A DNA stretch of 57,544 nt from an uncultured delta proteobacterium (GTDB lineage Bacteria; Myxococcota_A; Polyangia; DRWM01; JAAZOP01). Where the stretch lies: assembly GCA_947085355.1 (NCBI GenBank), contig CAMTWF010000109.1:1-57544 (forward strand), given 5' to 3'. Under the pieces are notes generated by a model, which saw nothing but the letters and a program-made list of their open reading frames with translations, was not told the DNA's origin and made no database searches. The stretch's first letter is position 1. Each line of letters begins with the position of its first letter. The position numbers were made by a program, and so were the translations under genes. This document shows, one piece after another, positions 1 through 16,010 of the stretch.

Positions 1-2134
1 CCTGCTCCTGGTACAGGATCACGCCGTACGTCTCGCTGCACACGCGCTCGACGATGGAGATGGCGCACCGGGACGCCCCCTTTTCACCTTCCCTGCGGGG
101 CTGTTCGGCGCTTCGCGCCTCACCGCCGTGCTTGCGCCGTATGTACTGCTCGTCGGCGCCGACCTTGAGCGGCCCGGGGCGGTAGAGCGCCACGGCGGCG
201 ACGATGTCCTCGATCCGGTCGGGCCGCAGGCGCCGCAGCAGCTCCCGGAAGCCGCGCGACTCGAGCTGGAACACGCCGAGCGTCCTGCCGGCCGAGATCA
301 GTTCGAAGACTTTCGGATCGTCGAGCGGCACCTCGGAGATGTCGAAGCCGGCCGAGCCGTTCTTCCGCCGCACGAGCTTCACGGCGGCGTCGATGGCCGT
401 GAGGTTCTTCAGGCCGAGGAAGTCGAACTTCACGAGGCCGACCTTCTCGACCGACGACATGTCGTACTGGCTCACCAGCGCGTCGTCCTTGCTGCGGGTC
501 ACGGGGACGATCTCCCACAACGGGCGGTCGCCGATGACGATCCCGGCGGCGTGCTGCCCGGCGTGGCGGTGCAGCCCTTCGAGCCTCCCGGCGAACTCCA
601 GCAGCCTCCGCACGTCCGGGTTCGACTCGTACTCGGCCCGCAGGCGCGGCTCGACCGCCAGCGCGTGCTCGATCGCCCCCCCGTCCGACTCCTTGTCGTC
701 CGGCGCCGCCGGCGGGATCATCTTGGCCAGGCGATCCCGCTCGGCGTACGGCAGCATCAGCACGCGCCCGACGTCCTTGACCGCCGCCCTGCTGCGGAGC
801 TGGTGGAACGTGGCGATCTGCCCCACCCGGTCGCCGCCGTATTTCCTCGTGACGTACTTGATCACCTCGTCGCGCCGGTCCTTGCAGAAGTCGATGTCGA
901 AGTCCGGCATCGACGGCCTCATCGGATTGAGGAACCGCTCGAACAGCAACCCGAACCGGATCGGATCGATGTCCGTGATCCGCAGCGCCCATGCGACCAG
1001 CGATCCGGCGCCCGAGCCGCGCCCCGGACCGACCGGGATTCCCTGTTCGCGGGCGTACCGGATGAAGTCATGCACTATCAGGAAATACCCCGCGTACCGC
1101 TTGTCGCAGATGATCGCCAGCTCGTGATCCAGCCGCTTGGGGTACTCGCCCTCGGAACCTCGCGGCAAAGCCGCCCGGGTCCTTCCGCCGGACGCCGCCG
1201 GGCGCGCCAGCCGCTCCCGGAGACCGGCGTGGGCCAGGCCGCGCAGGTACGTCTCCAGCGTCTCGCCGCGCGGCACGGCGTAGTCGGGCAGCATCGGCTT
1301 GCCGAGCGGCAACTCGACGTCGCACCGATCGGCGATCTCGATCGTCCGCTCGATCGCGTCCGGGAACCCGGGCAACGCCTTGCGCATCTCCTCGCCGGAG
1401 CGCAGGTGGAGGGCGAGCGTCGAGTGCCCCAGGTTGACCTCGTCCCGGATCGTCTTGCCCTCCTGGATCCGCATGAGGATGTCGTGCGCGGAGGCGTCGT
1501 CGCGGTTGAGGTAGTGGACGTCGTTGGTCGCCGCCAGCGGGATGCCGGTGCGCGAGGAGATGTTGCGGAGGGCGGCGTTCAGCTCCTCCTGCCCCGGGTA
1601 GCCGGTCTGCTGCACCTCCAGGTGGTAGCATCCGGGCTCGAACAGCTCGCGGTACTCCAGCGCCGTCCGTTCGCCCGCCGCCTCGCCGCCGTCGCGCACG
1701 GCCCGCGCGACGTCGCCCGCCGTGCAGCCGCTCAGCGCGATCAGCCCCTGCCGCCGCTCGGCCAGCAGCTTCCGGTCCACCCTCGGGTTGTAGTGGAACC
1801 CCTTCAGGTGCGCCTGGCTGACCAGGTAGACGAGGTTCCGGTAGCCGTGGAGGTCGGCGGCGAGCAGCACGAGGTGGCCGGAGGCGCGTTGCGACTTGTC
1901 CTCCATGTCGCCCGGCGCCACGTAGACCTCGCAGCCGATGATCGGCTTGATCCCCGCGTCGCGCGCCCGGACGTAGAAGTCGATCGCCCCGTACATCACG
2001 CCGTGGTCGGTGATCGCCACCGCGGTCTGTCCCAACTCCTTGAGGCGCCGGAACAGGTCGGACAGGCGCACGGCGCCGTCCAGCAGCGAGTACTGCGTGT
2101 GCAGGTGAAGGTGGACGAAGTCGCCGGGCCCCAT
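1..2134 (-). CDS. dnaE: DNA polymerase III alpha subunit (DnaE), N-terminal ~711 aa; the 3' end runs off the left edge
   Basis: Reverse-strand translation from ATG 2134-2132 reads MGPGDFVHLHLHTQYSLLDGA..AITDHGVMYG (PHP domain) .. GPGRGSGAGSLVAW .. PDFDIDFC .. GVFQLES .. YGVILYQEQ. It is absent from the ORF track because no stop lies inside the window. The + ORF 128..2293 is its antisense shadow. Confidence 0.95.
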   Translation of the reverse strand, partial: MGPGDFVHLHLHTQYSLLDGAVRLSDLFRRLKELGQTAVAITDHGVMYGAIDFYVRARDAGIKPIIGCEVYVAPGDMEDKSQRASGHLVLLAADLHGYRNLVYLVSQAHLKGFHYNPRVDRKLLAERRQGLIALSGCTAGDVARAVRDGGEAAGERTALEYRELFEPGCYHLEVQQTGYPGQEELNAALRNISSRTGIPLAATNDVHYLNRDDASAHDILMRIQEGKTIRDEVNLGHSTLALHLRSGEEMRKALPGFPDAIERTIEIADRCDVELPLGKPMLPDYAVPRGETLETYLRGLAHAGLRERLARPAASGGRTRAALPRGSEGEYPKRLDHELAIICDKRYAGYFLIVHDFIRYAREQGIPVGPGRGSGAGSLVAWALRITDIDPIRFGLLFERFLNPMRPSMPDFDIDFCKDRRDEVIKYVTRKYGGDRVGQIATFHQLRSRAAVKDVGRVLMLPYAERDRLAKMIPPAAPDDKESDGGAIEHALAVEPRLRAEYESNPDVRRLLEFAGRLEGLHRHAGQHAAGIVIGDRPLWEIVPVTRSKDDALVSQYDMSSVEKVGLVKFDFLGLKNLTAIDAAVKLVRRKNGSAGFDISEVPLDDPKVFELISAGRTLGVFQLESRGFRELLRRLRPDRIEDIVAAVALYRPGPLKVGADEQYIRRKHGGEARSAEQPRREGEKGASRCAISIVERVCSETYGVILYQEQ

Positions 2135-2197
2135 CGCCCCGGATCTGCGCGCCGCCGGAGGCGAAGGTCAAGAGCGGGGTGGAGGGGCGCAACCAAA

Positions 2198-4718: not shown

Positions 4719-5333
4719 TTACTCGTGTGCGATTGCCCCGGGCGGAGGGCCAAGTTGATCGAGCGGCGGGTCGCCGGGGATGCCGGTCCAGTTGGCCATC
4801 ACGCCGTCGGTCCACACTTCGATCACGGGAGCCTCTTCGAACTGCTCGCGAACCCGCTCGTCGTAGCGTCTTGTGAGAAAAACGAACTCCTGGTTGCGGC
4901 TGCCGTGCCAGCCGCGGCCATCGGTGGCCAGGGCGGCCACGTACGGGCCGGCGATGAGGAGGTCGGTGACCTCGAGCAGGGCGCGGACCTCCGGGAGGAG
5001 GCTCCGCTTCAGGTGCGCGAAGGTGTAGCCGCTGTAGGTCACCACCGAGCCACCGAGACGCCGGGCTTCGCTGGCGAGGCGCGCGCACGCGGCGGCCTGC
5101 TCGAAGGGCTCGCCGCCGCTAACGCTGATGCCCTCGACCTCGCCCTCCATGAGATGGGCGGCGAGTTTCTCGGGCTGCCAGAGGCGGCGGCGTTCGTGGG
5201 GATGGGTGTCGGGGTTGAAGCAGCCGGGGCAACGGATGGTGCAGCCCTGGACCCAGACCGCCGCGCGCCAACCGGGGCCGTTGGTTCGGGTCCGGGGTCT
5301 GATGGCCGAGACGTTGAGAAGCGCTTCAGGCAT
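4719..5333 (-). CDS. Small radical-SAM enzyme of the NrdG/PflA-activase type (Fer4_12/14-like), orphan
   Basis: WVQGCTIRCPGCFNPDTH (CxxxCxxC in the G-C-x3-C-x-G-C-x-N context) and SVSGGEPFEQ (SAM-binding GGEP). The ATG (5333) or GTG (5336) start overlaps the stop of the upstream AAA+ gene (cGTGATGCCTGA). Confidence 0.85.
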   Translation of the reverse strand: MPEALLNVSAIRPRTRTNGPGWRAAVWVQGCTIRCPGCFNPDTHPHERRRLWQPEKLAAHLMEGEVEGISVSGGEPFEQAAACARLASEARRLGGSVVTYSGYTFAHLKRSLLPEVRALLEVTDLLIAGPYVAALATDGRGWHGSRNQEFVFLTRRYDERVREQFEEAPVIEVWTDGVMANWTGIPGDPPLDQLGPPPGAIAHE

Positions 5334-7179
5334 CACGCAGCTCCAACTCGATCAGCTTGCCGTCCACGCGGGCGTGGACGATGCGTCCGCAGCGGAGCTT
5401 CCCGTGGTGCTCGAAAAGGAAGCGCGCCAGCGGGTTCAGGAGATCGCGCTCCACCGCGTTGAGGAGGCCGCGGCCGCCGTGGTCGACGCGCGCGCTCGCG
5501 GCGAGGTGTGCGACGACGTCGTCGCCGATGTTTAGGCCCACCCCCCAGCGTTCCTGAAGATGAGAGCGGAGCGGCTCGAGCTTTCGCTTCAGGATGTCGC
5601 GGCGAAGCTCCTCCTTCTCGATCGCGCGGAACACGACGATGTTGTCGCCCAGGCGATTCAGCAGCTCGGGACGGCGGAGGTCGCGGACGAAGTGGTCTTC
5701 GACGGCCTTCCGGAAGTGGCGCTCGTAGTCCCCTTCCTTGCCGTCCTTCGGCACCTCGGCCGCGCCGATGTTGCTCGTGAAAATGATCACCGACTCGCTG
5801 AACCAGGCGGTCTCGCCACGACCGTCCGTGAGGCGGCCGTCCTCCAAGATCTGGAGGAACTTGTCCAGTACCCGCCCGTGCGCCTTCTCGATCTCGTCGA
5901 AGAGCAGGACGGAGAACGGCCTGGCACGAACCGCGTTCGTGAGCTGTCCGCCATCCTCGAAGCCTACGTAGCCGGGCGGCGCGCCGACCAGGCGCTGATC
6001 GCTGTGCTCGTGGTTGAACTCGCTCATGTCGAACCGGATGCATGCGGCCTCGTCGCGGAACAGGAACTCGGCGCAGGCCTTCGCGAGCTCGGTCTTGCCC
6101 ACGCCCGTCGGCCCGACGAAGAAGAGGGTGCCCTTGGGCTTCATCCTGCGTGCCGAGTGCTGGAGCCCGGCGAGTCCGAGCCATGCGCGGATTATCATCG
6201 TGGCGACGTGGTCGACCGCGGCGTCCTGGCCGATCACGCGCCGGCGGAGTTCGTTGTCGACGCCGGCGAGGCGCTCTTCCGAAAGCTCCTCCCAGGGCGA
6301 GCGCTGATCCCCGAAGCGGTAGAGGTTCAGCAGGCGGTCCGGCGGCAGCTTGCGCGCCCGTGACAGCGCCACGATCTGGCGCAGGTCGGCCATCGTGAGC
6401 TGATCGGTGAGGTCGGCCATGGCTTCGATTCCCGCGCGCCGCTCCGGGACTGGCGGCGCGCCGGGCGCCGGGCGGGGAGCCTCAATCTGGGTGTCGTCCG
6501 CGTGCCGATCGAAGAAGGCCCGACGCTCATCCCGTCCCGGCGTGGGCACGGACACGATCCGCACGCGCGGCTCGCCCTGGTACAGGGCCGGCGGCACCGC
6601 GCCCAGGTTGGCGCTCACGAGCACGACCAGACCGCCGCCGCGGCGCAAGCGGTCGCTGTCGATCCGCTGCGATGGCTCGCCGACGATCGCCTTCGCGAGT
6701 TGCAGGATCCACTCTCGCTCGGCCGCATCCGGGTGCGCCGGCTGCGTAACAAGGAGGTGAGACCAGTCGATGACCAGCAGCGGGCGCACCTGGTCCTGGC
6801 CGATCACTATCCGGTACTGCGCGATCAGCTCGGGGAGGTCCACTCGCCGGCCCGCCGTAGGCGGCGCCGGCTCGGCGCGATCCTCCCCGCCCGCGTCGTA
6901 CGGCTGTCCCCGCCCGGCGTCGGGCGCGACAGTTCGCTTGACTGCCTCGTCCCACCTCCGGGCCTGTTCCTCGTCGGTGAAACGGAGGCCGTCGACTCGA
7001 TCCCAGGTGGCGCGGATCGTGAACTGCCCCAGGCGCCGCGAGAGAAGGGCAGGCAGCGTCAGGTAGTCCGAGCCCGTTCCTGACCAGAACAGATCCCGGG
7101 TGTTGCCGAACAGGACAAGGCCGGAGCGAACGTCGGCCTCGCGGTGAAGCGTAGCCAGCCAGTCAGGATCTTGAGACAT
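5326..7179 (-). CDS. Double AAA+ ATPase: degenerate N-terminal AAA+ module plus ClpA/ClpB-D2-like (AAA_2) active module
   Basis: The D2 module reads VIGQD.AV..V......R..L.......KPKGTLFFVGPTGVGKTELAKA.A..LF....A.IRFDMSEF.E.HS..RLVGAPPGYVGF..GGQLT.AVR..PFSVLLFDEIEKAH..V....LQILEDGRLTDG.G......S.IIFTSN. The N-half has LVLFGNTRD in place of a Walker A, then LLVIDWSHLL and VSVPTPGRDERRAFF. ATG 7179 is preceded by GGAGGTAGGG. The upstream 51 codons of the track ORF overlap the previous gene. Confidence 0.85.
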   Translation of the reverse strand: MSQDPDWLATLHREADVRSGLVLFGNTRDLFWSGTGSDYLTLPALLSRRLGQFTIRATWDRVDGLRFTDEEQARRWDEAVKRTVAPDAGRGQPYDAGGEDRAEPAPPTAGRRVDLPELIAQYRIVIGQDQVRPLLVIDWSHLLVTQPAHPDAAEREWILQLAKAIVGEPSQRIDSDRLRRGGGLVVLVSANLGAVPPALYQGEPRVRIVSVPTPGRDERRAFFDRHADDTQIEAPRPAPGAPPVPERRAGIEAMADLTDQLTMADLRQIVALSRARKLPPDRLLNLYRFGDQRSPWEELSEERLAGVDNELRRRVIGQDAAVDHVATMIIRAWLGLAGLQHSARRMKPKGTLFFVGPTGVGKTELAKACAEFLFRDEAACIRFDMSEFNHEHSDQRLVGAPPGYVGFEDGGQLTNAVRARPFSVLLFDEIEKAHGRVLDKFLQILEDGRLTDGRGETAWFSESVIIFTSNIGAAEVPKDGKEGDYERHFRKAVEDHFVRDLRRPELLNRLGDNIVVFRAIEKEELRRDILKRKLEPLRSHLQERWGVGLNIGDDVVAHLAASARVDHGGRGLLNAVERDLLNPLARFLFEHHGKLRCGRIVHARVDGKLIELELRDA

Positions 7180-7181
7180 CC

Positions 7182-8051
7182 CTACCTCCCCTTGCTTCGA
7201 CCACCGGCCGGCAGGTCGCGGGCCCCCTTCGACAGGCGATCCGGGTTCTTCCACACGACCTGGGGCGGACCGAGCTTGACGCCGAACCGGTCGCGCATCG
7301 CCACCTCCACCTTCTGCATCTCGTCGGCGCACGAACGCCCTTCGTAGCCGTCCAGGTCGAAAGCCATCTGACCGTCGAGCTTGACCTCGAACCGCGCGCG
7401 CCGGCCGCTCGCCAGACGTCCCTCCAGCACGACCACGCCCTCGTCGAGCCGCGGCCCGACGACGACGAAGCCCATGTCCTTGAGCGTGCCCAGAAGCCCG
7501 CGCACTACCTCGCGACGGACGCGCTCGTCGATCGCTCCCGCGGTGGCGGCGCGTGCGCGCTCGTCGGCGGCCGTCACGCTGCGGCCGGCTTCATCGATCC
7601 TCCCGGCCTCGGCGTGCTTCTCGGCCTCCGAGGCGAGGCGCTCGGCCTCCTGCGCGCCGGTCGCGAACCCCTGAGACGCGGCTACGACGGCCCGCGCCCC
7701 GGCCGCGGCCGCGCGCGCCCGCGCGACCGCCTCGGCCTGCGCTTCCGACCAGGCCCGGGCCTGCGCCTCTCCCCGGGCGATCGCCCGCTGGGCGGCGAGT
7801 TGGATCTCTCGAATCCGGTTCATGGCGGCATCCGCATCGCCGGCAATCTGCCTCCGCGCCTCGTCCAGCGTCTTGGCGACCGCGCTGATCTCCGCCGCGG
7901 CGAACTGCTGAACCGCCACGTCGCGCACGCCACGTATCGTCGCGGCGCACGCGTCGGCGAGCGCGGTACACTCCGCGCGGACTTGGGTGAGTCGGAGAGC
8001 CTCGACGCGCTCCCGCTCGAGTTCGAGACGTCGCTGACCGCTCATGCTCAT
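7182..8051 (-). CDS. Hypothetical Ala-rich coiled-coil protein with a ~110-aa C-terminal globular domain
   Basis: In-frame ATG 8051 forms an ATGA overlap with the stop of the upstream gene (8048-8050). The N-half is heptad-like and Ala/Arg/Glu-rich. The C-terminus reads VRGLLGTLKDMGFVVVGPRLDEGVVVLEGRL..FEVKLDGQMAFDLDGYEGRSC. I recognise no family. Confidence 0.65.
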   Translation of the reverse strand: MSMSGQRRLELERERVEALRLTQVRAECTALADACAATIRGVRDVAVQQFAAAEISAVAKTLDEARRQIAGDADAAMNRIREIQLAAQRAIARGEAQARAWSEAQAEAVARARAAAAGARAVVAASQGFATGAQEAERLASEAEKHAEAGRIDEAGRSVTAADERARAATAGAIDERVRREVVRGLLGTLKDMGFVVVGPRLDEGVVVLEGRLASGRRARFEVKLDGQMAFDLDGYEGRSCADEMQKVEVAMRDRFGVKLGPPQVVWKNPDRLSKGARDLPAGGRSKGR

Positions 8052-10699
8052 TGGCGCTTTCTCCTCGTCTTCCCATGCCGACGGTTGCGGGATGGATCGT
8101 GCGCCGGCCGCGTGCCTTCCTCCACCAGAGCGATGAGCCCGGCTTCGGAAAGGCCGATCTCGCTCCAGGCGCTGAGGGTATCGCGCCAGATCTGCGTTGT
8201 CCTCGCGCGCGCCTCGCGGAGAGGCACAGCGAGACGACGGATGCGCTCGGTGACGCGGCTCTCGACCTCGTCGCCCAGGAGGGGCCGGAGCGGTGCCAGC
8301 TCGCGGAGCCACCACGCGATCCAGGCAGGCTCGGTCGGTGCTGGAAAACCGCCCACGAGGCCACTCGCCCAAGCACGGCCCACCTCCGCGATCTCGTGCC
8401 AGTCGGCTCCGGCGGCCGCGAGCAGGCGGACGGTTTCCCTGGCTGACTGCGCGGTCGGCAGGGCGTCGGGCGCGGGCAGGATCTGCCGCAGCGCCTGCTT
8501 CCACCACCCTGCGTCGAGGGCGTAGCCGAGCCGTCGCAGCGCTCGCCACAGAGCGTCCACGTCCCCGGTGGACGGCTTCGGACCCAGGAGGCTCGGCGCG
8601 ATGGCCTCGGCGGGGACAACGCCCACGGCCTGCCGGAGGAGGTCGTCGCGCTCGTCGGGCCGGGCCGCGAGCAGGCTCTGCCAGAGTTCGATCGCCCGCT
8701 CGCGAAACGCTGCGGGGACGATGTCGCGCAGGGCGCGGGTCTGGTCGATCCAGACCCGCAGTCCTTGCGGCGAGACCGGCTCCGGCACCTCCCGGAGCAG
8801 CCGTCGAGCCCAGTTAGCCAGCTCGGACCTGTCGAGCGTGCGCTGCGCTGCGGCCGCCACAGCGGCGATGTCCGAGCCGGTCCAGGAAGCGACGCGAAGG
8901 CACGCATCCCGCGCGTCACGCCATCGCGGGGTCCCGCGCGCCGCGTCCTTGCCCCATCGACCGGTGGCCGCACTGTCGATCGCGAGGAGCGTTTCGAGCG
9001 GCTCCGGATCCTGTGCGACCGAACGTGGTCGCACCCACGCTTCCACTGCGCCCTCCACAAGCGTCGAGGCTGCAACGCCATCGGGCGCGGCCCTGGCCAG
9101 GACCGAGAGCAGAGCGTCCCGGGTGCCTCCGCCGTGCGCGAGCACCGCCTTCAGGCCCTCGTTCCACGCCTCGACGGCCGGGGCCTCGATCACTCCCCGT
9201 TCCAGCGAGGGCACGAGGACCCGTACAAGAGCTCCGAGACGGCGCAGGACGACGATCCGCGCCAGGCCAGGGCACAGTTCGACGGCCAGCTGGACGAGTT
9301 CGCGCCACGCCGCCTCGTCCGCCCGGAAGGTGACGCGCGCAACGGCCAGCCGCAGGTCCGTTCGTTCGAGGGCGGCCGAAGCTTCGACATCGGGATCCGG
9401 GCGCGCCTCGTCGAGGGTTCCCCCCGCGGACAACGCCGGGGCGCGGCCGGCGCTGGTGCGCGCTTGCGCTCCGAACGCCGCCCCGATCAATCCCGCGCGT
9501 ATTTCGACGGCGGCTCCGGCGGCGAGCACGCCCACGAGTTCCATAGCGATGCGCTGCGGACCGGCGCCTACCTGGACATCGTCCAGGACGAGACCAGAAC
9601 GTCCATCGGCAACCATCGCGCACGGCAGTGCATCCTGCGACGACGTGCGCACGCCCAGGACGGGGCTCGAACCGTCTCCCCACGCCAGCACGCCCGCCGA
9701 CTCTGCACCGACGACAAGCACGCGGACGCCGCGCTGGGCGGCCGCATCGATCTCACGTTCCATCCCCTCCATCTCGGTCCAGGCCGCGTGGAGCACGATC
9801 TCGGCGCGCGCGCCGCCGACCAGGCGCGCGGCCGCAGCCGGCACGTCGGCGACGGGGACGGTGGCAGCCACCTTGCGGCGCCACTGATCGAACGTCATTC
9901 CGACCGACCGCCGCAATCGGTCACTCGCGGACCAGGCGCCCGATACGGGTCTGTTGGCAAGACCCACGTCCGCGACGGGGTCGCACGCGCGAAGGTAGTC
10001 CAGCGACTTCCCCGAGAGGCCAGGAGCGCGCAGGTCGAGGTCGCCGGAGAGACCGATCCGCATCTCCACGCTCACGGGCGTCCACTGGACGCTCGGAAAG
10101 CCGCTTCTCGGCGGCCCGACTTGCCGAACCTCGCCGTCGCCGCGGACCAGGTCGGCGTGATAGCGACGAACGATCTCCCGCGCGCGGTCTAGGCCGACCG
10201 ATTCGCGGGCCGTCGGCAGGTCGCGCGTCCGGGGAAACGTCATCGGGACGGTCGCGCGTCGCTCCGGCGGCTCCCTGATCGACTCGTCGGTCAGGGCGTC
10301 GAAGTAGAAGGTCTCCCCGTGCGCGGCCGGTTCTCCCTCGATCAGCCCGCGCCGGTATAGGTCGTAGCCCGTCGGAGAGAAGTCGAGCTCCGGCAGGCCT
10401 GCCTGTTCGGGCGGCGGATTCTCCGAACCGTTGTTCCGGGGGCGAAGCGCGCCAAGACGGATCGTCGCGCGCAGCGCGTCCGAGAGAAACCCGGCGTCCA
10501 CCCCGAGTTCCTCGGCCACCTCTCCGAGCGTCGGCGGCGCTTCACGAAACTCATCAACGACCCGCAGGACTGCGAACTCCAGGGCCGTCAGCCTGCGCGG
10601 GTGGACGATCTCCAGGGCAACCGGGACGCACTCCACCGGCCACCAGATCTGGACGCGATGCCAGGGGGCGCCGTTTTCAGCCGAGGATCTGTCGGGCAA
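8048..10699 (-). CDS. Large hypothetical protein: N-terminal winged-helix-like segment, central PLD-fold-like segment lacking the HxK catalytic motif, helical-repeat C-half
   Basis: LTALEFAVLRVVDEF..PTLGEVAEELGVDAGFLSDALRATIRLGAL is wHTH-like. ARAEIVLHAAW....MEREIDAAAQRGVRVLVVG ... DALPCAMVADGRSGLVLDD resembles a PLD repeat with HxK replaced. The start is TTG 10699, overlapping the helicase stop by 23 nt; the start is uncertain. Confidence 0.7.
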   Translation of the reverse strand: MPDRSSAENGAPWHRVQIWWPVECVPVALEIVHPRRLTALEFAVLRVVDEFREAPPTLGEVAEELGVDAGFLSDALRATIRLGALRPRNNGSENPPPEQAGLPELDFSPTGYDLYRRGLIEGEPAAHGETFYFDALTDESIREPPERRATVPMTFPRTRDLPTARESVGLDRAREIVRRYHADLVRGDGEVRQVGPPRSGFPSVQWTPVSVEMRIGLSGDLDLRAPGLSGKSLDYLRACDPVADVGLANRPVSGAWSASDRLRRSVGMTFDQWRRKVAATVPVADVPAAAARLVGGARAEIVLHAAWTEMEGMEREIDAAAQRGVRVLVVGAESAGVLAWGDGSSPVLGVRTSSQDALPCAMVADGRSGLVLDDVQVGAGPQRIAMELVGVLAAGAAVEIRAGLIGAAFGAQARTSAGRAPALSAGGTLDEARPDPDVEASAALERTDLRLAVARVTFRADEAAWRELVQLAVELCPGLARIVVLRRLGALVRVLVPSLERGVIEAPAVEAWNEGLKAVLAHGGGTRDALLSVLARAAPDGVAASTLVEGAVEAWVRPRSVAQDPEPLETLLAIDSAATGRWGKDAARGTPRWRDARDACLRVASWTGSDIAAVAAAAQRTLDRSELANWARRLLREVPEPVSPQGLRVWIDQTRALRDIVPAAFRERAIELWQSLLAARPDERDDLLRQAVGVVPAEAIAPSLLGPKPSTGDVDALWRALRRLGYALDAGWWKQALRQILPAPDALPTAQSARETVRLLAAAGADWHEIAEVGRAWASGLVGGFPAPTEPAWIAWWLRELAPLRPLLGDEVESRVTERIRRLAVPLREARARTTQIWRDTLSAWSEIGLSEAGLIALVEEGTRPAHDPSRNRRHGKTRRKRQ

Positions 10700-13600
10700 G
10701 GCGCCTTCCCCCTGACCTGCGGATCTGTTCGATGATGTTCAGATATGCGGGGACATCCACGGGCGAGCCGCCGTCCAGCGGCGGCAGGGGAACCTGCGCG
10801 TTCTTCCACGTCTCCTCCGCGCCAACCACGACGAGGAGTCGCTGTGCGCGAGAGAGACCCACGTTAATGCGCTGAAACTCGCGGACGAAGCTGCCGAGCC
10901 TGCCCTCCTTCGAGCGCACTAGGCTGGCGATGATGATCGGCTTCTCCATCCCCTGGAAGCGGTCCACGGTGTTCGTCCGGAGCTCCATCGTACCGAAGGG
11001 CTCGGGATGCTTCGCCTTGCACGCGTCGATCGCGCCCCGGAGCAGCTTGAGCTGTGCGCCGTAGAACGTGATCACGCCGACCTCGCGCTGTGCCATCACG
11101 CGCAGACGCGAACCCGGCCGTGCCGAATCGCCTGGCTTCTGGCTGCGCCCATCGACGCGTACGCGTCGCTCCTCGAAGAGGTCGGCGATCGTCTCCGGCG
11201 CGGCGCCGCCCAGGAGCCGCGCGACGATTTCGCGCAGCGCCTTGCCCTCGTCGCTCTTGTCGATCTCGGTTTCGCGCGTCGCGCCATAGCCGAGCTTCAC
11301 GAGCTGCTGCCCGATCCGGAGCAGCAGTGCAACGACCAGGTCGACCTCCAGCCGGTTCACCTTCGAGCTGCCGGCCTGCTCGTCCCAGGCGGCAGTCCCA
11401 CCCGGATCCTTGGACGAGTCGACCCAGAGCAGGTGCTGCCGCAGCTCCAGCAGGCGACCGCCGTGGCCGTCGTCGATGTCGAGGTGATGGTCCCTGGACT
11501 TGCCGAGTGCTTTGCGGCTCGGCCCGGCCTCAAGACGCCCCTCGTAGAACTGGTTGACGGCGTCCATGATCGCCGGGTGCATGCGGTACTGGGTCCAGAG
11601 CATCGCCTTGATTGCGTCATGGGCGTCCTCGAAGAGCTCTTGGAACAAACTCGCCGTGACCATCCGCTTGAACCGATCGTAGTCCTCCCGGCGGATCTCT
11701 CCGTCCTCCGTCGCCTCGCCGAAGCTGGCGTCCCGCTCCCGGAACATGGGTGGGAGCTGCCGATGGTCGCCCACGAGCACCGCCTTGTGCCCGAGCAGCA
11801 GCGGCAGGATCAGCTCGGGCGGCGTTGCCTTGCTCACCTCGTCGACGATGACGATGTCGAAGGGCCGGAACTCGGGATCTTGCCAGACCTTGCGCTTGCC
11901 GGCCTCGTTGCAGGTCATGCCCACGACGTTGGCCCAGCGAACGTAGAGGATCTGAAGCTGCTCGCGGTCGGTGTCGCTGGCCCTGTCCAGGCGCGCGAGC
12001 CACTCTGTCTGGACCCGCCTCCACCTCCTCGCTCGCTCCACCCGATGGCCTGCTTCCTTGCGCGCGGCGGCGACGACCAGCCCGGCTTCGCGCAGGGCGG
12101 CATCGGTAGGGTCCCCGACCTCCTGCACGACGCCGGCGTCGCCCCAGGCTCGATCCCACGCCTGTCGCGCGGCCCGTAGTTCCTCTCCCACGACCCGCTC
12201 GGTCCAGAGGGCACCCTCGACGGCGGCTTCCGCTTCCCGCCGTTCCTGCTCGCGGCTTCCCAGAGCCCTCATGGCTCGCTCGTGCTCTGCCGCCACGACC
12301 GACGCGCGGTCGCGCCAGACCAGCGCGAGCGCGCCGATGGCTTCCCGCGCGCGCTTCGCGGTCGCAAGCTCGCGCTCGACGAGATCGCCGGCTTCGCGCA
12401 GCGCATCGCGGGTAGCGTTCGACGGCTCGAGCGTGTCCACGATGCCGGCAATGCAGGGTGGCGGCGCGTGGGGCCACGCGGTACGCGCAGCCCGGTGAAG
12501 ATTGCCCGTCAGACGGTTCCATCCGGCCCCCTCGATCTGCTTGATCCGGCGATTCACGACCTGGAGGCGGCGGAGTTCAGGCGCGCTGTCCGAGTCGATG
12601 AGGCCCGCCTTCTCGGCTCGCAGGCTCCTCAACTCCTGTCCGGCCTCTGGATCCGGATCTGAGCCTGCCATCAGCACTTCGATCGCGACCATGACGGCAC
12701 GAAGGGGCACCTCCCGCTGGCGGGCCCGGTCCAGCGCCGCGAGCGGTGGCAGGCTGCGGTCGAGGCCGCGAGGAAGCGAGACGAGCTTGTCCGACCACTC
12801 CACGCCGGCGTCGGCCGGCAGCGGGGCGTCGCTGGCGCACCATCGGATCAGCGAGCGCAGGCGCTCGTCCGACTTCGCGGCGTCGTCCGCAGCGCGTCGG
12901 GCCGCATCGAGTCGGGCTCGGGCGTCCTCCTCGGCGCGCCGGGCGCGCTCCGACGTGGAACGCGCGTCGTCGCTCGCCTTCGCGGCCCGCTCGTAGGTCG
13001 CCAGGGCGGTGGCCAGCGCGTCGATGGCCCGCTCGCGCCGCAGCAGCGCGGCCTCGGACTCCTGCGCGGCGTCCATGCGTCCCCGACAGTAGCCGGCGAT
13101 GTTGGCGAACCACCGGTCGATCACGTTCCCGATCAGGAACTCCTTGAACTCGTCGTCCACGCGGTCAGGGTCGCCCAGACGCAGCGCACGCACGGCCGGA
13201 GCGTCGGACAGCCGGGCCAGCGCGTTGTCCACTGCCAAGTTGGTCTGCGAGGCGACCAGGACGCGCTTGCCCTCGACGGCCGCCCGCAGGCAGATGTCGG
13301 CGATCACCGTCGTCTTGCCCGTGCCCGGCGGTCCTTGGATCAGGCACAGGTCGGGCGCGGCGAGCGCCTTACGGACCGCCTCCCGCTGGCCGGGGTTGAG
13401 ATCGCGGCCGCCGCATACCGGCGGCAGATCCTCCGGCACGTCGAGGGGCACGCTCGCACTCTTCGCGCTGAAGATGAAGTCCGCCAGCCGTGGCGAGAAG
13501 CCCTGGCTGTTGTTCAGCCGGTTGACGCCCCCGCGCTGGTTGAACAGCGGCGCCAGGTCACCCGCGATGCTCGACACCAGCAGGCCCACGGCCGGCAGGC

Positions 13601-14633
13601 CCTTCTCATCCTTCCGAACCTTGTGCCGCAGCAGTTCGGCCTGTTCCTCCTCGACCCGGATCACGACGCGGCGGTGTCCGCGATCGACGCGAACGTCGCC
13701 CCACCCGTCGCGATCGCGCTGAAGATCGATCTCCTCGACCGCTTCCACCTCTCCGAGCACGGTGACCTCCGGCTCTCGCCGCCTTCCGCGTTGCGGGTGC
13801 CTGCCGTTGCCATATCGATGTTCGCCGGCGTCCTCCTCGTCGCCGTTGTCGGCGGGCTGCACCGTCGCTCCCAACGCGAGACCGACCAGCCTGGGAGGGG
13901 GCAAGTCCCTTGCGCGAACCAGGAAGCCGAGTAGCGTCTCGCCTTCCCAACGCCATCCGTCGTAGGGCACCTTGAGCTGGTTTCGGTGGACGAGCGCCTC
14001 CTTCCAGTCGAGGTAGAGGCGCCAGGACTGGAGGCGCTCGGCCGTCACGGCGCGATGGAACGGCAGGCCCGCCAGAGACGCGAAGTCGGCATCCGTCATG
14101 AAGAAGTCGCCGCCCCAGCGAACTGGTCCACTGACCCGGACCTCGAAGTCCCGCCGCAGCACGTGTGGCGTCACCTCGATCCCCTTGATGTTCAGCCTGT
14201 CCTGCGCACGATATGCCCGGAACGCCAGTGTCAGCCCGCCCACTGCCGGCCGACGCGCCTTCGGACCTTCACACAGGGGCCGCAGGAGCAGGTCCAGCCG
14301 GTGCGCCGGTACGCCGGGATCGTAGCCGATGTTCGACACGTACATCGTGGCCGGCGCCCCGTCCGGCCAGACCTCCGTCAGGAAATCCGCAAGGCCGAAC
14401 TCCTCGGGGTCCCATTCGTTCGCATCGGCCCACGCGCGGACGAGGTCGCGGACGGGCTTCGGGATATCCACGCGGGCAACGAACGTGAGAACCAAGTCGG
14501 AGACGGGGATATCCACGACCAGCGGAGGATCCTCGCATCCCGCTTGGTCGCTGCGCGAGCAGACGCCCGCGAAAGCCGTCTGGTCATCGGGCTCGCTCAC
14601 GCCCTCTTCCTGATGGGGTGGATGAAGCAACAC
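10677..14633 (-). CDS. Superfamily-1 Upf1/DNA2-like helicase (AAA_11/AAA_12 type) with ~410-aa unknown N-domain and ~420-aa coiled-coil insertion
   Basis: Motif I is LIQGPPGTGKTT (aa ~431-442) and Ia is VASQTNLAVDNAL. A long Ala/Arg/Glu coiled-coil follows. Motif II is IVIVDEVSKA, III is VLVGDHRQLPP, IV is QYRMHPAI. Motif V is VDRFQGMEKPIII and VI is RINVGLSRAQ. GTG start at 14633; alternative GTG at 14600. Confidence 0.9.
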   Translation of the reverse strand: MLLHPPHQEEGVSEPDDQTAFAGVCSRSDQAGCEDPPLVVDIPVSDLVLTFVARVDIPKPVRDLVRAWADANEWDPEEFGLADFLTEVWPDGAPATMYVSNIGYDPGVPAHRLDLLLRPLCEGPKARRPAVGGLTLAFRAYRAQDRLNIKGIEVTPHVLRRDFEVRVSGPVRWGGDFFMTDADFASLAGLPFHRAVTAERLQSWRLYLDWKEALVHRNQLKVPYDGWRWEGETLLGFLVRARDLPPPRLVGLALGATVQPADNGDEEDAGEHRYGNGRHPQRGRRREPEVTVLGEVEAVEEIDLQRDRDGWGDVRVDRGHRRVVIRVEEEQAELLRHKVRKDEKGLPAVGLLVSSIAGDLAPLFNQRGGVNRLNNSQGFSPRLADFIFSAKSASVPLDVPEDLPPVCGGRDLNPGQREAVRKALAAPDLCLIQGPPGTGKTTVIADICLRAAVEGKRVLVASQTNLAVDNALARLSDAPAVRALRLGDPDRVDDEFKEFLIGNVIDRWFANIAGYCRGRMDAAQESEAALLRRERAIDALATALATYERAAKASDDARSTSERARRAEEDARARLDAARRAADDAAKSDERLRSLIRWCASDAPLPADAGVEWSDKLVSLPRGLDRSLPPLAALDRARQREVPLRAVMVAIEVLMAGSDPDPEAGQELRSLRAEKAGLIDSDSAPELRRLQVVNRRIKQIEGAGWNRLTGNLHRAARTAWPHAPPPCIAGIVDTLEPSNATRDALREAGDLVERELATAKRAREAIGALALVWRDRASVVAAEHERAMRALGSREQERREAEAAVEGALWTERVVGEELRAARQAWDRAWGDAGVVQEVGDPTDAALREAGLVVAAARKEAGHRVERARRWRRVQTEWLARLDRASDTDREQLQILYVRWANVVGMTCNEAGKRKVWQDPEFRPFDIVIVDEVSKATPPELILPLLLGHKAVLVGDHRQLPPMFRERDASFGEATEDGEIRREDYDRFKRMVTASLFQELFEDAHDAIKAMLWTQYRMHPAIMDAVNQFYEGRLEAGPSRKALGKSRDHHLDIDDGHGGRLLELRQHLLWVDSSKDPGGTAAWDEQAGSSKVNRLEVDLVVALLLRIGQQLVKLGYGATRETEIDKSDEGKALREIVARLLGGAAPETIADLFEERRVRVDGRSQKPGDSARPGSRLRVMAQREVGVITFYGAQLKLLRGAIDACKAKHPEPFGTMELRTNTVDRFQGMEKPIIIASLVRSKEGRLGSFVREFQRINVGLSRAQRLLVVVGAEETWKNAQVPLPPLDGGSPVDVPAYLNIIEQIRRSGGRRLARQILG

Positions 14634-15129: not shown

Positions 15130-15771
15130 TCAGGGGGTGGTCGGCGGGCTGGTGTCGTCCTCGTCGCCCGGCTGGCGGCGGTCGAGCAGGCTGCGATACT
15201 CGCGCGACTCCCGGCCGAAGGTGTTGCGCACGACGCGCCGGAAGCGGACGAACAGCGGACGCGCGAGCATCGCCGTGTCGGCGCGGCACTGCTGCGCCTT
15301 CTGCAAGGCGTCCAGCGCCCCGGACGCCTCGCCCTGCTCCTTCACCGCGCTGTCCAGCAGCCCCACCATGGCCTTGAAGAGATCCTTCGCCCAGGCCGAC
15401 GCGGCGTGTTCCTCGAGCACATCCTCCAGATCCTCGGCCGCCCCGAGCAGGTCGTCGGGCGTGGTGAAGCTCGACGCGGCCAGGAAGGTCCGCCCGGGCG
15501 ACTTCGTCATCACGACCTCGCGGGTCTCGTCGTAGAACTTCGCGAGCGGCGCGACCGCGGCCAGCGCCTCCCGCACTTCCTTGCTCGCCCCACGCAGCAA
15601 CCTGCCGACCTCGGCGTCGGCGGCGTTGTACTTGACGATCTCGACCACCATGTCGGGCGCGATCGCCTTGATGGCGAGCATCTGGCCCTCGGGCGTCGCC
15701 ACGGCGTTGGTGATGATCCCCTGTGCCCGAGCGAACTGCCGCGTCGTGATCGTTACGGACTGCTGTGCCAT
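15130..15771 (-). CDS. Hypothetical protein (213 aa), no recognisable family
   Basis: Clean ORF with ATG 15771 preceded by GGAGAGAAGGGAG. The composition is protein-like (MAQQSVTITTRQFARAQGIITNAV...) with an acidic, proline-rich tail. Confidence 0.6.
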   Translation of the reverse strand: MAQQSVTITTRQFARAQGIITNAVATPEGQMLAIKAIAPDMVVEIVKYNAADAEVGRLLRGASKEVREALAAVAPLAKFYDETREVVMTKSPGRTFLAASSFTTPDDLLGAAEDLEDVLEEHAASAWAKDLFKAMVGLLDSAVKEQGEASGALDALQKAQQCRADTAMLARPLFVRFRRVVRNTFGRESREYRSLLDRRQPGDEDDTSPPTTP

Positions 15772-16010
15772 CGCATGACTCCCTTCTCTCCAGGCGCGCC
15801 AAGCCTCCCACCACGGCCGGCCTTTCTTCGCGCCCGTCTACCGGGGAGGGTGTCTACCAGCGGCCGGCGGGTGATGTCAACCCTCGGTGTGCGGTTTTTT
15901 TTCAACGACCCGCCAAGTCGCCAAAGACGCCGATGCCGTCCCCACATCCGATCTGCCGCAAACTTGCCCGCGCGTGCAGCAGGATGAATGATAGCGGCGG
16001 AGGTTGGAGG

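What the first reader, a model, noticed from the sequence alone, without database searches (positions are those of the whole stretch)
4719..5336. Orphan NrdG/PflA-type radical-SAM activase as the terminal gene of the operon
WVQGCTIRCPGCFNPDTH plus SVSGGEP places this 205-aa protein among the small activase-type radical-SAM enzymes (class III RNR / PFL activases, YjjW, also QueE-like). Such enzymes normally sit beside their glycyl-radical substrate or in a deazapurine pathway. None of NrdD, a PFL-like GRE, QueC/QueD or a TGT is present in 57 kb. Its start codon overlaps the AAA+ stop. Its substrate is therefore likely another product of this operon, or a nucleotide or nucleic acid (viperin-like logic). 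The only G-Y containing loop I could find in the partners is a weak FDLDGYEGRS near the C-terminus of the coiled-coil protein. It lacks the RVxGY context, and I do not consider it sufficient evidence.
Basis: partly seen in the sequence, partly recalled or inferred. Interest (0 to 1): 0.7.

Follow-up and report, generated by a model that had tools for sequence, protein, structure and literature searches.

The report
NrdG-like radical-SAM in helicase–AAA+ defence cassette
The gene is a real, intact relative of the enzyme that activates anaerobic ribonucleotide reductase, but it is the fixed last gene of a mobile, undescribed five-gene helicase/AAA+ cassette found in defence islands and on plasmids, so it almost certainly works on a partner in that cassette rather than on a reductase.

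Summary
The ORF is real (4719-5333/5336, minus strand, 204/205 aa). It carries the CX3CX2C, GGEP and NGPGWR motifs. Its closest family is NrdG, at 42-44% identity to true NrdGs that sit beside NrdD. It still fails the NrdG equivalog cutoff (88.6 vs 126.1 bits), it has a clade-specific ~40-aa C-terminal extension, and no NrdD lies in the window.

It is not an orphan. In bacteria, archaea and plasmids the same order recurs: Upf1/MkoA-like helicase, nuclease-like protein, coiled-coil protein, ClpB-D2-like AAA+, then this rSAM. The nuclease-like protein is PLD-like without HxK here and carries PIN in other lineages. Some copies sit next to DISARM-like, PglZ and TIR genes.

More distant rSAM relatives always sit with another AAA+ ATPase plus DUF1257 and DUF2997 proteins. 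The C-terminal domain of the coiled-coil protein is DUF2997-like.

The loop is really [YF]xGxxC, and only the Cys is invariant.

Best reading (inferred, not shown): an NrdG-derived, protein-directed radical generator acting on that loop, within a Mokosh-related defence system. A nucleic-acid substrate remains a serious rival. No description of the cassette was found in the literature or in the PADLOC or NCBIfam models.

The parts
4719..5336 (-). NrdG-like radical-SAM protein (204 aa from ATG 5333; 205 aa from GTG 5336), the terminal gene of the cassette
   Evidence: ORF. Pfam Fer4_12 2e-31. NrdG TIGR02491 88.6 bits, below the 126.1 cutoff. AF2 pLDDT 88.8. Best PDB fold match is PFL-AE with peptide, 3cb8, E=7e-8.
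5220..5243 (-). CTIRCPGC: the CX3CX2C [4Fe-4S]/SAM cluster motif (C32, C36, C39)
   Evidence: Translation. All three Cys are invariant in 82 homologues.
5265..5279 (-). GPGWR: the [DN]GxGxR loop typical of glycyl-radical-enzyme activases
   Evidence: G20, P21, G22 and R24 are 98-100% conserved in 82 homologues. The loop aligns with DGPGIR of PflA.
5106..5117 (-). GGEP SAM-binding motif, part of the invariant GGEPFEQA
   Evidence: The motif is shared with true NrdG of L032/L041.
4767..4871 (-). Clade-specific C-terminal extension (residues about 156-190; helix plus beta-hairpin with conserved E172, G178, G185). It is absent from true NrdG.
   Evidence: Alignment with the NrdGs that sit next to NrdD. 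Conservation. AF2 strands 171-175 and 180-184.
5326..7179 (-). AAA+ ATPase, 617 aa. It has an N-terminal degenerate AAA-like domain followed by a ClpB/ClpA D2-type module (Walker A GPTGVGKT at 356, pore loop GYVG at 403, Walker B DEIEK at 428).
   Evidence: Pfam AAA_2 3e-49 and ClpB_D2-small. Motifs. Gene call. The N-domain is remotely similar to the N-domain of the AAA ATPases in the DUF1257/DUF2997 modules (hhalign 53-68%).
7182..8051 (-). Coiled-coil/helical-bundle protein (CC), 289 aa, with a C-terminal alpha/beta domain that is DUF2997-like (and DUF1257-C-like)
   Evidence: No Pfam family at gathering score. Family of 518 50%-identity clusters. AF2 pLDDT 84: helices 13-192 and an a/b domain 196-267. 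hhalign to DUF2997 gives 83.5%, E=8e-6. Foldseek top hit is the spermine-synthase N-domain/AdoMetDC-like fold, E=5.6e-4.
7329..7349 (-). GYEGRSC loop (G235-C241) between the last sheet strand and the helix. The family motif is [YF]xGxxC.
   Evidence: Across 152 representatives: C241 152/152, aromatic at 236 152/152, G238 136/152, G235 76/152.
8048..10699 (-). 883-aa protein. Its N-terminal part is weakly MkoB-like, followed by a PLD/TrmB-like domain that lacks the HxK catalytic motif and a helical C-terminal region.
   Evidence: PADLOC MkoB 2.4e-8 over residues 16-329. Pfam Regulator_TrmB 6e-4 over 293-374. In the alignment of 11 homologues only W206 and H304 are invariant, and no HxK is present. 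In other lineages this slot holds a PIN_4 protein.
10677..14633 (-). SF1 Upf1/MkoA-like helicase, 1318 aa, with a long coiled-coil insertion. First gene of the cassette.
   Evidence: Pfam AAA_11 1.4e-43 and AAA_12 4.3e-37. PADLOC MkoA 1.5e-103. No kinase domain was found.

Best explanation
The gene encodes a catalytically competent, NrdG-derived radical-SAM enzyme. It is the radical-generating subunit of a conserved, horizontally mobile five-gene cassette: Upf1/MkoA-like helicase, nuclease-like protein (PLD-like without HxK here, PIN in other lineages), coiled-coil protein with a DUF2997-like domain, ClpB-D2-like AAA+ unfoldase, and the rSAM.

**Shown**
- The enzyme type, and the failure of every test for NrdG orthology.
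- The strict synteny across phyla, domains of life and plasmids.
- Homology of the rSAM / AAA+ / DUF2997-like trio to a much wider module built from an AAA ATPase, DUF1257, DUF2997 and the rSAM.

**Inferred**
1. The cassette is an anti-phage or anti-plasmid system related to Mokosh. In it the helicase senses foreign nucleic acid.
2. Like its NrdG and PflA relatives, the rSAM cleaves SAM and uses the 5'-deoxyadenosyl radical on a protein loop rather than on a small molecule.
3. The best candidate loop is the [YF]xGxxC loop (G238/C241) of the DUF2997-like domain of the adjacent coiled-coil protein. The result would be a protein radical or a radical-derived modification that arms or switches the complex.
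4. The AAA+ ATPase presents or resets that domain.
For: **Enzyme type**
- Fer4_12 matches at 2e-31.
- NrdG, then PFLA, are the best NCBIfam hits.
- It is 42-44% identical to true NrdGs that lie next to a verified NrdD, and shares GPGxR, CX3CX2C, GGEPFEQA and W.GS.NQ with them.
- The best fold match is PFL-AE with its peptide substrate (7e-8), against QueE at 1.7e-3 and viperin at about 0.1.
- The core is small, about 155 aa, as in activases that must admit a protein loop (established knowledge for PFL-AE).

**Not an NrdD activase**
- The score is below the equivalog cutoff, while the control NrdG passes (88.6 and 137.9 against 126.1).
- No NrdD is found in the window or in any cassette locus.
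- The C-terminal extension is specific to this clade.
- In the NJ tree the cassette rSAMs form one clade separate from NrdG.

**Fixed partnership**
- The five-gene order recurs in L001, L005, L008, L009, L016, L081 and L084-L086. The PIN variants are L090-L092.
- The ORFs overlap or abut.
- About 60 more distant rSAM loci always carry an AAA ATPase with DUF1257 and/or DUF2997.
- The C-terminal domain of CC aligns to DUF2997 and keeps an invariant Cys in [YF]xGxxC.

**Defence and mobility**
- MkoA-like helicase.
- Neighbours are DISARM-like genes (L084), and PglZ plus TIR/ThsB/MazG_C/Nmad2 (L086).
- The cassette sits on Acinetobacter and Leisingera plasmids.
- Cassette GC3 is 0.82-0.87, against 0.92-0.94 in flanking genes.
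Against: - There is no biochemical evidence. No complex could be modelled with the tools available.
- No glycine in the candidate loop is universal. G235 is kept in 50% of representatives and G238 in 89% (D in the archaeal copies). Only the Cys is invariant, and no NrdG/PflA-type enzyme is known to act on Cys.
- Some variants (L006, L007) show P883-like, AAA and rSAM genes with no CC gene between them, on short contigs. A few distant loci have DUF1257 but no detectable DUF2997.
- The hosts are mostly aerobes, in which glycyl radicals are destroyed by O2.
- Every architecture also contains a nucleic-acid-binding partner (an SF1 helicase or ComEA-like HhH proteins), which fits a nucleic-acid substrate equally well.
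- The window's own flanks are housekeeping genes rather than a defence island.
- The wider module is related to the cyanobacterial/plastid ycf35/ycf46-type genes. The ancestral function therefore need not be defence.
Confidence: 0.4

Rival explanations
1. The substrate is a nucleic acid or a nucleotide. The helicase (or the HhH proteins in the sister modules) presents phage RNA or DNA, or the enzyme converts an NTP. The 5'-deoxyadenosyl radical then abstracts a sugar or base hydrogen, giving strand damage, a modification or a chain terminator. On this reading the rSAM is the effector that replaces the dead PLD nuclease.
For: - Every architecture pairs the rSAM with a nucleic-acid-binding module: MkoA-like SF1 helicases in classes B and C, and ComEA-like HHH_3 membrane proteins in class A.
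- The PLD-like domain of gene 2 lacks HxK, so another effector is needed in this lineage.
- Fer4_12-type rSAMs fused to HhH domains, annotated as DNA modification/repair enzymes, exist (paper 10.64898/2026.08.19.745780).
- Viperin sets a precedent for rSAM immunity.
Against: - The sequence and fold are far closer to protein-directed activases than to viperin or QueE.
- The peptide-contacting GPGxR loop is invariant.
- The core is too small to enclose a nucleotide as viperin and QueE do.
- PIN-bearing variants keep the rSAM even though they already have a nuclease.
- This reading does not explain the strict linkage to DUF2997/DUF1257 proteins and an unfoldase.
Confidence: 0.25
2. The rSAM is a regulatory or consumptive subunit rather than a substrate-specific catalyst. 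Either its Fe-S/SAM site senses SAM level or redox state (for example phage SAM hydrolases), or uncoupled SAM cleavage depletes SAM as an abortive-infection output.
For: - No universally conserved glycine exists in any partner.
- The DUF2997/DUF1257 genes of cyanobacteria sit next to a ferredoxin gene (PMC4284462), which hints at an electron-transfer or redox context.
- The C-terminal domain of CC has a spermine-synthase-N/AdoMetDC-like fold (one family member also hits SpmSyn_N weakly). This is a fold family associated with SAM-derived ligands.
Against: - All catalytic and substrate-loop motifs are under strong purifying selection, as in working activases.
- The fold similarity of CC is to a generic alpha/beta sandwich, at modest E-values.
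- No precedent for such a role exists in this enzyme family.
Confidence: 0.12
3. It is an ordinary NrdG that activates an NrdD encoded elsewhere in the genome, and its position after the AAA+ gene is incidental.
For: - NrdG is the top NCBIfam hit (E=3.8e-25).
- It is 42-44% identical to true NrdGs.
- JGI pipelines annotate homologues as NrdG.
- The rest of the host genome could not be inspected.
Against: - The score is below the TIGR02491 cutoff, while a control NrdG passes.
- Synteny with the same four genes is conserved across bacteria, archaea and plasmids, with overlapping ORFs.
- The enzyme forms a separate clade with its own C-terminal extension.
- Plasmid-borne copies have no nrdD nearby.
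Confidence: 0.03
4. The cassette is not an immune system but a cellular RNA/protein quality-control or stress module. The helicase, unfoldase and radical enzyme would act on endogenous ribonucleoprotein substrates, with the rSAM chemistry as in the best explanation.
For: - The window copy lies among housekeeping genes: dnaE, a TonB receptor and tRNA synthetases.
- The wider module is lineage-wide in Gastranaerophilales and related to cyanobacterial ycf35/ycf46-type genes.
- The helicase is Upf1-like.
Against: - The distribution is patchy and spans domains of life.
- Copies are carried on plasmids.
- Other copies are adjacent to DISARM-like, PglZ and TIR genes.
- GC3 is lower than in neighbouring genes.
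- The second gene is swapped between lineages (PLD-like or PIN), which is typical of defence systems.
Confidence: 0.15

Closest known systems
NrdG (class III ribonucleotide reductase activase; TIGR02491)
   Same: - Best sequence family.
- 42-44% identity to NrdGs that sit beside a verified NrdD.
- Same GPGxR, CX3CX2C, GGEPFEQA, DG.[FY]V and W.GS.NQ motifs, and the same core of about 155 aa.
   Different: - Scores below the equivalog cutoff.
- No NrdD in the window or in any cassette locus.
- Conserved extra C-terminal segment of about 40 aa.
- Always follows an AAA+ gene.
- Forms a separate clade.
PflA / glycyl-radical-enzyme activating enzymes
   Same: - Best solved-structure match is PFL-AE with SAM and the RVSGYAV peptide (3cb8, E=7e-8).
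- The DGPGIR-type loop and the cluster motif align.
   Different: - Much shorter than PflA.
- No partner carries an RVxG[FYW] glycyl-radical domain.
- The candidate partner loop is [YF]xGxxC in a small alpha/beta domain.
Mokosh type I (MkoA/MkoB; Millman et al. 2022 preprint 10.1101/2022.05.11.491447)
   Same: - The first gene is a COG1112/Upf1-like helicase that matches the MkoA models strongly.
- The second gene shows weak N-terminal similarity to MkoB and has a PLD-like fold region.
   Different: - No kinase domain in the helicase protein.
- The PLD catalytic HxK is missing.
- Three extra conserved genes (CC, AAA+, rSAM) are present.
- The second gene is a PIN protein in sister lineages.
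DUF1257 (Ycf35) / DUF2997 / AAA ATPase gene clusters (cyanobacterial ycf35-type genes; function unknown)
   Same: - The rSAM's more distant relatives sit in clusters with PF06868, PF11211 and a PF00004 AAA ATPase.
- The C-terminal domain of CC aligns to DUF2997, and the AAA N-domains are remotely similar.
   Different: - Here DUF1257-C-like and DUF2997-like elements are fused behind a coiled coil.
- The ATPase is Clp-D2-type.
- Helicase and nuclease-like genes are added.
- The cyanobacterial clusters described in PMC4284462 have a ferredoxin gene rather than an rSAM.
Prokaryotic viperins (pVip)
   Same: A radical-SAM enzyme in an antiviral context. This is the idea of a radical-SAM immune effector.
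   Different: - Only marginal similarity: NF038283 scores 15.7 bits against a cutoff of 180, PADLOC pVip E=0.0065, Foldseek about 0.1.
- No nucleotide-enclosing barrel and no kinase partner.

Membership tests
NrdG (TIGR02491 equivalog) | Whole-protein score at or above the curated cutoff (126.1 bits) | tested here: not met
   The window rSAM scores 88.6 bits. The control NrdG next to NrdD (L041) scores 137.9 bits and passes. A class A relative scores 115.3 bits and fails.
NrdG (TIGR02491 equivalog) | Genomic or functional pairing with NrdD | tested here: not met
   tblastn with a verified NrdD hits only L032 and L041, and hits neither the window nor any cassette locus. The rest of the host genome is not available.
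NrdG (TIGR02491 equivalog) | Compact protein of about 155 aa ending shortly after the W.GS.NQ...L segment | tested here: not met
   An extension of about 40 aa is conserved in all AAA+-linked clades and is absent from L032/L041 NrdG.
Glycyl-radical-enzyme activase superfamily (PflA/NrdG type) | CX3CX2C cluster motif plus GGE SAM motif | tested here: met
   C32, C36, C39 and G74-G75-E76 are invariant in 82 homologues.
Glycyl-radical-enzyme activase superfamily (PflA/NrdG type) | [DN]GxGxR loop N-terminal to the cluster motif (it contacts the substrate peptide in PFL-AE) | tested here: met
   NGPGWR is present. G20, P21, G22 and R24 are 98-100% conserved, and the loop aligns to DGPGIR of PflA. 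Its role in peptide contact is from established knowledge of 3CB8.
Glycyl-radical-enzyme activase superfamily (PflA/NrdG type) | Partial TIM-barrel fold closest to PFL-AE | tested here: met
   Foldseek gives 3cb8_A E=7e-8, TM 0.52 over 133 columns. The next family is QueE at 1.7e-3.
Glycyl-radical-enzyme activase superfamily (PflA/NrdG type) | A cognate substrate protein with a glycyl-radical domain (RVxG[FYW]) | tested here: not met
   No GRE is present in the window. The partner loop is [YF]xGxxC with no universal glycine.
Glycyl-radical-enzyme activase superfamily (PflA/NrdG type) | Generation of a stable protein glycyl radical from SAM | not testable with these tools
   This needs anaerobic reconstitution and EPR.
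QueE (7-carboxy-7-deazaguanine synthase) | Match to the QueE models and que/TGT gene neighbours | tested here: not met
   No QueE model matches at E<=0.01 for the window protein. Foldseek gives QueE E=1.7e-3, 4-5 orders of magnitude weaker than PFL-AE. The cassette neighbours are a helicase, a PLD-like protein, CC and an AAA+.
Viperin / pVip | Match to the viperin models | tested here: not met
   NF038283 scores 15.7 bits against a cutoff of 180. PADLOC pVip E=0.0065, 14 bits.
Mokosh type I | COG1112/Upf1-like helicase gene (MkoA) | tested here: met
   PADLOC MkoA 1.5e-103. Pfam AAA_11 and AAA_12.
Mokosh type I | Ser/Thr kinase domain in the helicase protein (Millman et al. 2022 preprint) | tested here: not met
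   No kinase family matches at E<=0.01 in the 1318-aa protein.
Mokosh type I | PLD nuclease partner with an essential active site (HxK) | tested here: not met
   Only residues 16-329 resemble the N-terminal part of MkoB (2.4e-8). The PLD/TrmB-like region has no conserved HxK in 11 homologues.
DUF2997 (PF11211), for the C-terminal domain of the coiled-coil partner | Pfam gathering score, and the beta-beta-alpha unit with the G-x-x-G-x-x-C motif | tested here: inconclusive
   Only 1 of 9 members hits PF11211, at E=0.038. Profile-profile comparison of the C-terminal domain with 42 DUF2997 proteins from sister loci gives 83.5%, E=8e-6, with the motif in register. The full-length comparison is weaker. 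The Cys is invariant.
Clp/Hsp100 (ClpB-type) AAA+, for the upstream ATPase | D2-type AAA_2 module with a GYVG pore loop and a D2-small domain | tested here: met
   AAA_2 3e-49. ClpB_D2-small 25.8 bits against a cutoff of 21.9. GPTGVGKT, GYVG and DEIEK are present. It is not a ClpB equivalog (289.9 bits against 1232), and it has no active D1 module.

The most novel reading that the evidence does not exclude
An NrdG-derived activase has been recruited into immunity as a radical engine. It would install a thiyl or glycyl radical, or a radical-derived modification, on the [YF]xGxxC loop of a DUF2997-like domain. This protein radical would be handled by an AAA+ unfoldase and aimed by an Upf1-like helicase, and would be the effector or the switch that kills phage nucleic acid or the infected cell.

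The same trio of rSAM, AAA+ and DUF1257/DUF2997 would then also reveal the ancestral biochemistry of the long-unexplained ycf35/ycf46-type genes of cyanobacteria and plastids.
Probability: 0.12. Interest if true: 0.9.

Novelty: new variant of a known kind. Interest (0 to 1): 0.72.

Why it matters
- All characterised NrdG/PflA-type enzymes do one thing: they put a glycyl radical on a dedicated glycyl-radical enzyme. Here a large, well-conserved clade of such enzymes has no glycyl-radical enzyme. The coiled-coil partner family alone has more than 500 clusters at 50% identity. The enzyme is instead welded to an unfoldase, a DUF2997/DUF1257-type domain and, in this lineage, a Mokosh-like helicase. 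The cassette sits on plasmids and in defence islands.
- If the cassette is a defence system, it would add a second kind of radical-SAM immunity beside viperin, with different chemistry.
- It gives a concrete, testable partner (an invariant Cys loop) for an enzyme family whose substrate range was thought to be closed.
- It offers a handle on DUF1257 (Ycf35), DUF2997 and the associated AAA ATPases, whose function has been unknown for decades.
- One copy lies on an Acinetobacter NDM-1 plasmid, so an experimental system is at hand.

Tried and rejected
- **Literature.** Ten full-text searches found no description of the cassette. Terms covered Mokosh + radical SAM, NrdG + defence, PLuB, DUF2997/DUF1257, Ycf46 + radical SAM, glycyl radical + anti-phage, NrdG-like, PF13353/Fer4_12, and COG1112/PIN/ClpB-like. 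The Ophion rSAM system (10.1101/2025.09.30.679545) has a different architecture (rSAM, PHP, PRTase). The Fer4_12+HhH/DUF4130 pair is a different family.
- **Family libraries.** PADLOC (2023) and NCBIfam (2026) have no specific model for the rSAM, CC or P883. The AAA+ hits PDC-M37B and DolB only over its ATPase core.
Rejected as a universal site: it is conserved in 76 of 152 representatives.
- **"GGR" C-terminal tails as a common substrate or docking motif.** They occur in the class A AAA and HhH proteins and in the Myxococcota-type helicases, but are absent from the PIN-variant cassettes. Left unexplained.
- **Promoter and terminator scan of the operon.** Nothing above shuffled expectation.
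- **Defence island in the window itself.** The flanks are housekeeping genes. A nearby SMC-like ATPase operon matches known systems only weakly.
- **Phage collection.** No CC homologue was found.
- **DUF1257 similarity of CC residues 176-225.** Only E of about 0.012 in a full-length profile comparison, so it is suggestive and not established.

Full report
**1.

The minus-strand ORF at 4719..5336 (205 aa from GTG; public gene calls use the ATG at 5333, giving 204 aa) is present. It contains WVQGCTIRCPGCFNPDTH and SVSGGEP. Pfam Fer4_12 matches at E=2e-31.

It is the last of five co-directional, tightly packed genes:
- helicase, 10677-14633
- 883-aa protein (P883), 8048-10699
- 289-aa coiled-coil protein (CC), 7182-8051
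- 617-aa AAA+, 5326-7179
- rSAM, 4719-5333

The P883/CC junction is ATGA. The CC/AAA gap is 2 nt. The AAA and rSAM ORFs overlap by 8-11 nt.

A verified NrdD finds nothing in the window. The other ORFs I scanned against Pfam are housekeeping or unrelated genes; dnaE at the left end was recognised from its translation alone.

**2. What kind of enzyme it is**

- NCBIfam ranks NrdG (TIGR02491, 88.6 bits) first, then PFLA and other activases. QueE models do not match, and viperin is marginal.
- The only PDB sequence hits are PflA.
- An AlphaFold model (pLDDT 88.8) is most similar to PFL-AE with SAM and its peptide substrate (3cb8, E=7e-8). QueE scores 1.7e-3 and viperins about 0.1.
- In 82 homologues the cluster cysteines, GGEPFEQA, W.GS.NQ and the activase-type GPGxR loop are 93-100% conserved.

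**3. An internal control separates it from NrdG**

Among the 80 genome loci retrieved with the protein, only two (L032 and L041, Eggerthellaceae) have an NrdD upstream. That NrdD matches PDB 8p23 at E=4e-184 and carries the RRITGYLVG glycyl-radical motif.

- Their NrdGs are 42-44% identical to the window protein and share all its motifs.
- They lack the roughly 40-aa C-terminal extension that every other clade has.
- The L041 NrdG passes the TIGR02491 cutoff (137.9 against 126.1 bits). The window protein (88.6) and a sister-clade protein (115.3) do not.
- In an NJ tree the cassette rSAMs are one clade and the two NrdGs are outside it.

So the protein is NrdG-derived, but it is not an NrdG orthologue.

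**4. It is not an orphan**

*The five-gene order recurs widely.*
- tblastn with the five window proteins shows the same order in Planctomycetota (L001), Zixibacteria (L005), Myxococcota (L003, L004, L008, L081, L084-L086), Phycisphaerae (L010) and Poseidoniales-type archaea (L009, L016). Short contigs give AAA+ plus rSAM.
- A profile of the coiled-coil protein finds 518 clusters at 50% identity.
- Many of these belong to a variant in which gene 2 is a PIN_4 protein instead of the PLD-like one. The CC, AAA+ and rSAM genes are unchanged in the complete copies, L090, L091 and L092. L087, a short contig, carries the PIN_4 protein but is cut before the rSAM position, and the short contig L088 shows CC, AAA+ and rSAM.
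- L091 is Acinetobacter plasmid pNDM1_010055, and L092 is a conjugative Leisingera plasmid. RefSeq names these proteins only generically.

*The context points to defence and mobility.*
- L084 lies beside PLDc_2, MZB, Helicase_C and methyltransferase genes (DISARM-like).
- L086 lies between PglZ and a resolvase followed by ThsB_TIR, MazG_C, Nmad2 and TIR genes.
- In the window the cassette has lower GC3 (0.82-0.87) than its neighbours (0.92-0.94), although those neighbours are housekeeping genes.

**5. The wider family**

The remaining rSAM loci, about 60 of them, are not NrdG either. They fall into two architectures.

| Class | Gene content | Where found |
|---|---|---|
| A | Classical AAA ATPase (PF00004), DUF1257-like protein, DUF2997 (PF11211), membrane proteins with a ComEA-like HHH_3 domain, rSAM | Firmicutes, Actinobacteria, Gastranaerophilales, Methanobacteriaceae |
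| B | The same kind of AAA ATPase, an MkoA-like helicase (PADLOC 1.2e-77), DUF2997, a DUF1257+coiled-coil protein (PF06868), rSAM | 7 loci: 3 Myxococcota MAGs, 1 delta-proteobacterial MAG, 1 Streptomyces, 1 Sumerlaeia MAG, 1 Rickettsiales MAG |

- The C-terminal domain of the window's coiled-coil protein aligns to DUF2997 (hhalign 83.5%, E=8e-6), with the G-x-x-G-x-x-C motif in register.
- The segment before it resembles the C-terminal unit of DUF1257 proteins only weakly.
- The N-domain of the Clp-type AAA+ is remotely similar to the N-domain of the class A ATPases.

The constant core is therefore the rSAM, an AAA+ ATPase and DUF1257/DUF2997-type elements. The variable part is a nucleic-acid-binding module: HhH proteins, or a helicase with a nuclease-like protein.

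**6. The partners in the window**

- **Helicase.** It is Upf1/MkoA-like (PADLOC 1.5e-103) but has no kinase domain.
- **P883.** It resembles MkoB only in its N-terminal third (2.4e-8). It has a PLD/TrmB-like region without the HxK motif; only W206 and H304 are invariant in 11 homologues. Millman et al. define type I Mokosh by a helicase+kinase gene and an active PLD nuclease. This cassette is therefore related to Mokosh but is not a member.
- **AAA+.** It has an intact Walker A, a GYVG pore loop and a Walker B, so it is probably a working unfoldase.
- **CC.** It models as a helical bundle (residues 13-192) plus a four-stranded sheet and helix domain (196-267; pLDDT 84). The nearest solved fold for that domain is the AdoMetDC-like N-domain of spermine synthase (E=5.6e-4).

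**7. The candidate substrate loop**

Among close relatives G235, Y236 and C241 are invariant. Across 152 family representatives the picture is different:

| Position | Conservation |
|---|---|
| C241 | 152/152 |
| Aromatic at 236 | 152/152 |
| G238 | 136/152 (D in archaeal copies) |
| G235 | 76/152 |

Free-standing DUF2997 proteins read G[IVM]KGxxC, and some actinobacterial ones lose the first G. No single glycine is universal. The Cys is.

**8. Mechanism**

*Shown:* the enzyme class, the failure of NrdG orthology, the fixed partnership, and the mobility.

*Inferred:* the enzyme keeps every activase feature, including the loop that contacts the peptide in PFL-AE. It is too small to enclose a small substrate, and it co-diversifies with its partners. 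It therefore most likely still abstracts a hydrogen from a protein loop, and the only domain shared by all architectures that offers a conserved loop is the DUF2997-like one. The AAA+ would present or recycle that domain. The helicase would couple the engine to foreign nucleic acid. I give this chain 0.4.

*Main rival (0.25):* the radical is aimed at nucleic acid or a nucleotide held by the helicase or HhH partners. This would also explain why a dead PLD is tolerated.

*Against the protein-glycyl version specifically:* there is no universal glycine, and the hosts are aerobic.

**9. Novelty**

No paper, PADLOC model or NCBIfam model that I could search describes the cassette or the rSAM/AAA/DUF1257/DUF2997 module. 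I classify it as a new variant of a known kind: an activase-family radical-SAM enzyme in a Mokosh-related helicase system. There is a real chance that its chemistry is new.

Noticed in passing
L012-L080 (e.g. L078 5121-10585; L019 9169-13043; L018 5634-9372): The wider rSAM clade sits in a conserved, apparently undescribed module. Its parts are DUF2997, a DUF1257-like (often TM) protein, a classical AAA ATPase of about 550 aa, membrane proteins with a ComEA-like HHH_3 domain, and the rSAM. It occurs in Firmicutes, Actinobacteria, Gastranaerophilales and Methanobacteriaceae, and is related to the cyanobacterial ycf35/DUF2997 clusters.
   Followed up: partly
L018 7160-8803; L078 5362-7448; L069 (8 paralogues upstream of 10001): In that module the AAA ATPase ends in S-R-G-G-R-x-[IL]-D-[FVLY]. 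The HhH membrane proteins, present in up to 8 tandem paralogues, end in (G/E)-R-x-[IVL]-D-[FLIVYW]. This shared C-terminal tail looks like a docking or recognition motif.
   Followed up: partly
L087 620-3064; L090 7486-9978; L091 6013-8175; L092 6275-8134: In a large sister lineage the second cassette gene is a PIN_4-domain protein rather than the PLD-like protein. These copies include an Acinetobacter NDM-1 plasmid and a conjugative Leisingera repABC plasmid.
   Followed up: partly
L091 12121-14103: Directly downstream of the Acinetobacter plasmid cassette lies a second, different trio: a small AAA family ATPase (173 aa), a radical SAM protein (328 aa) and a hypothetical protein.
   Followed up: no
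L090 13738-19330: In complete genome CP133267.1 the cassette is followed by genes typical of a prophage or mobile element: a Ribonuc_red_lgC protein, thymidylate kinase and DnaB-like replication genes.
   Followed up: no
window 18051-22952 (minus strand): An SMC/ABC-type ATPase ORF (the ATPase head starts near residue 250) is preceded by two unannotatable ORFs (20756-21565 and 21558-22952). It gives only weak PADLOC matches (mad3 2e-20, JetC 8e-11). It may be an uncharacterised SMC-like system about 3.4 kb from the cassette.
   Followed up: partly
window 15765-17891 (+) and 23024-23866 (-): A 708-aa protein carries eight Stig1-like Cys-rich repeats (PF04885, 5.6e-50). A 280-aa protein carries a Mut7-C RNase domain.
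   Followed up: no
window 1-2167 (minus strand): The N-terminal part of a DNA polymerase III alpha (DnaE, PHP domain) gene runs off the left end of the contig. The long plus-strand 'ORF' 128-2293 is its antisense shadow.
   Followed up: partly
window 4719-14633 vs flanks: The cassette genes have GC3 of 0.82-0.87, while neighbouring genes have 0.92-0.94. This fits acquisition by horizontal transfer.
   Followed up: partly
window 7182-7600 (CC residues about 150-289): The closest solved fold for the C-terminal domain of the coiled-coil protein is the AdoMetDC-like N-terminal domain of human spermine synthase. One family member weakly hits Pfam SpmSyn_N. This is a curious link to a SAM-related fold, given the radical-SAM partner.
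   Followed up: partly
L006 264-2689; L007 79-2967: Phycisphaerae variants show a P883-N-like protein, then a short AAA+ (D2 module only, 363 aa in L007), then the rSAM, with no coiled-coil gene between them. Both contigs are short.
   Followed up: no
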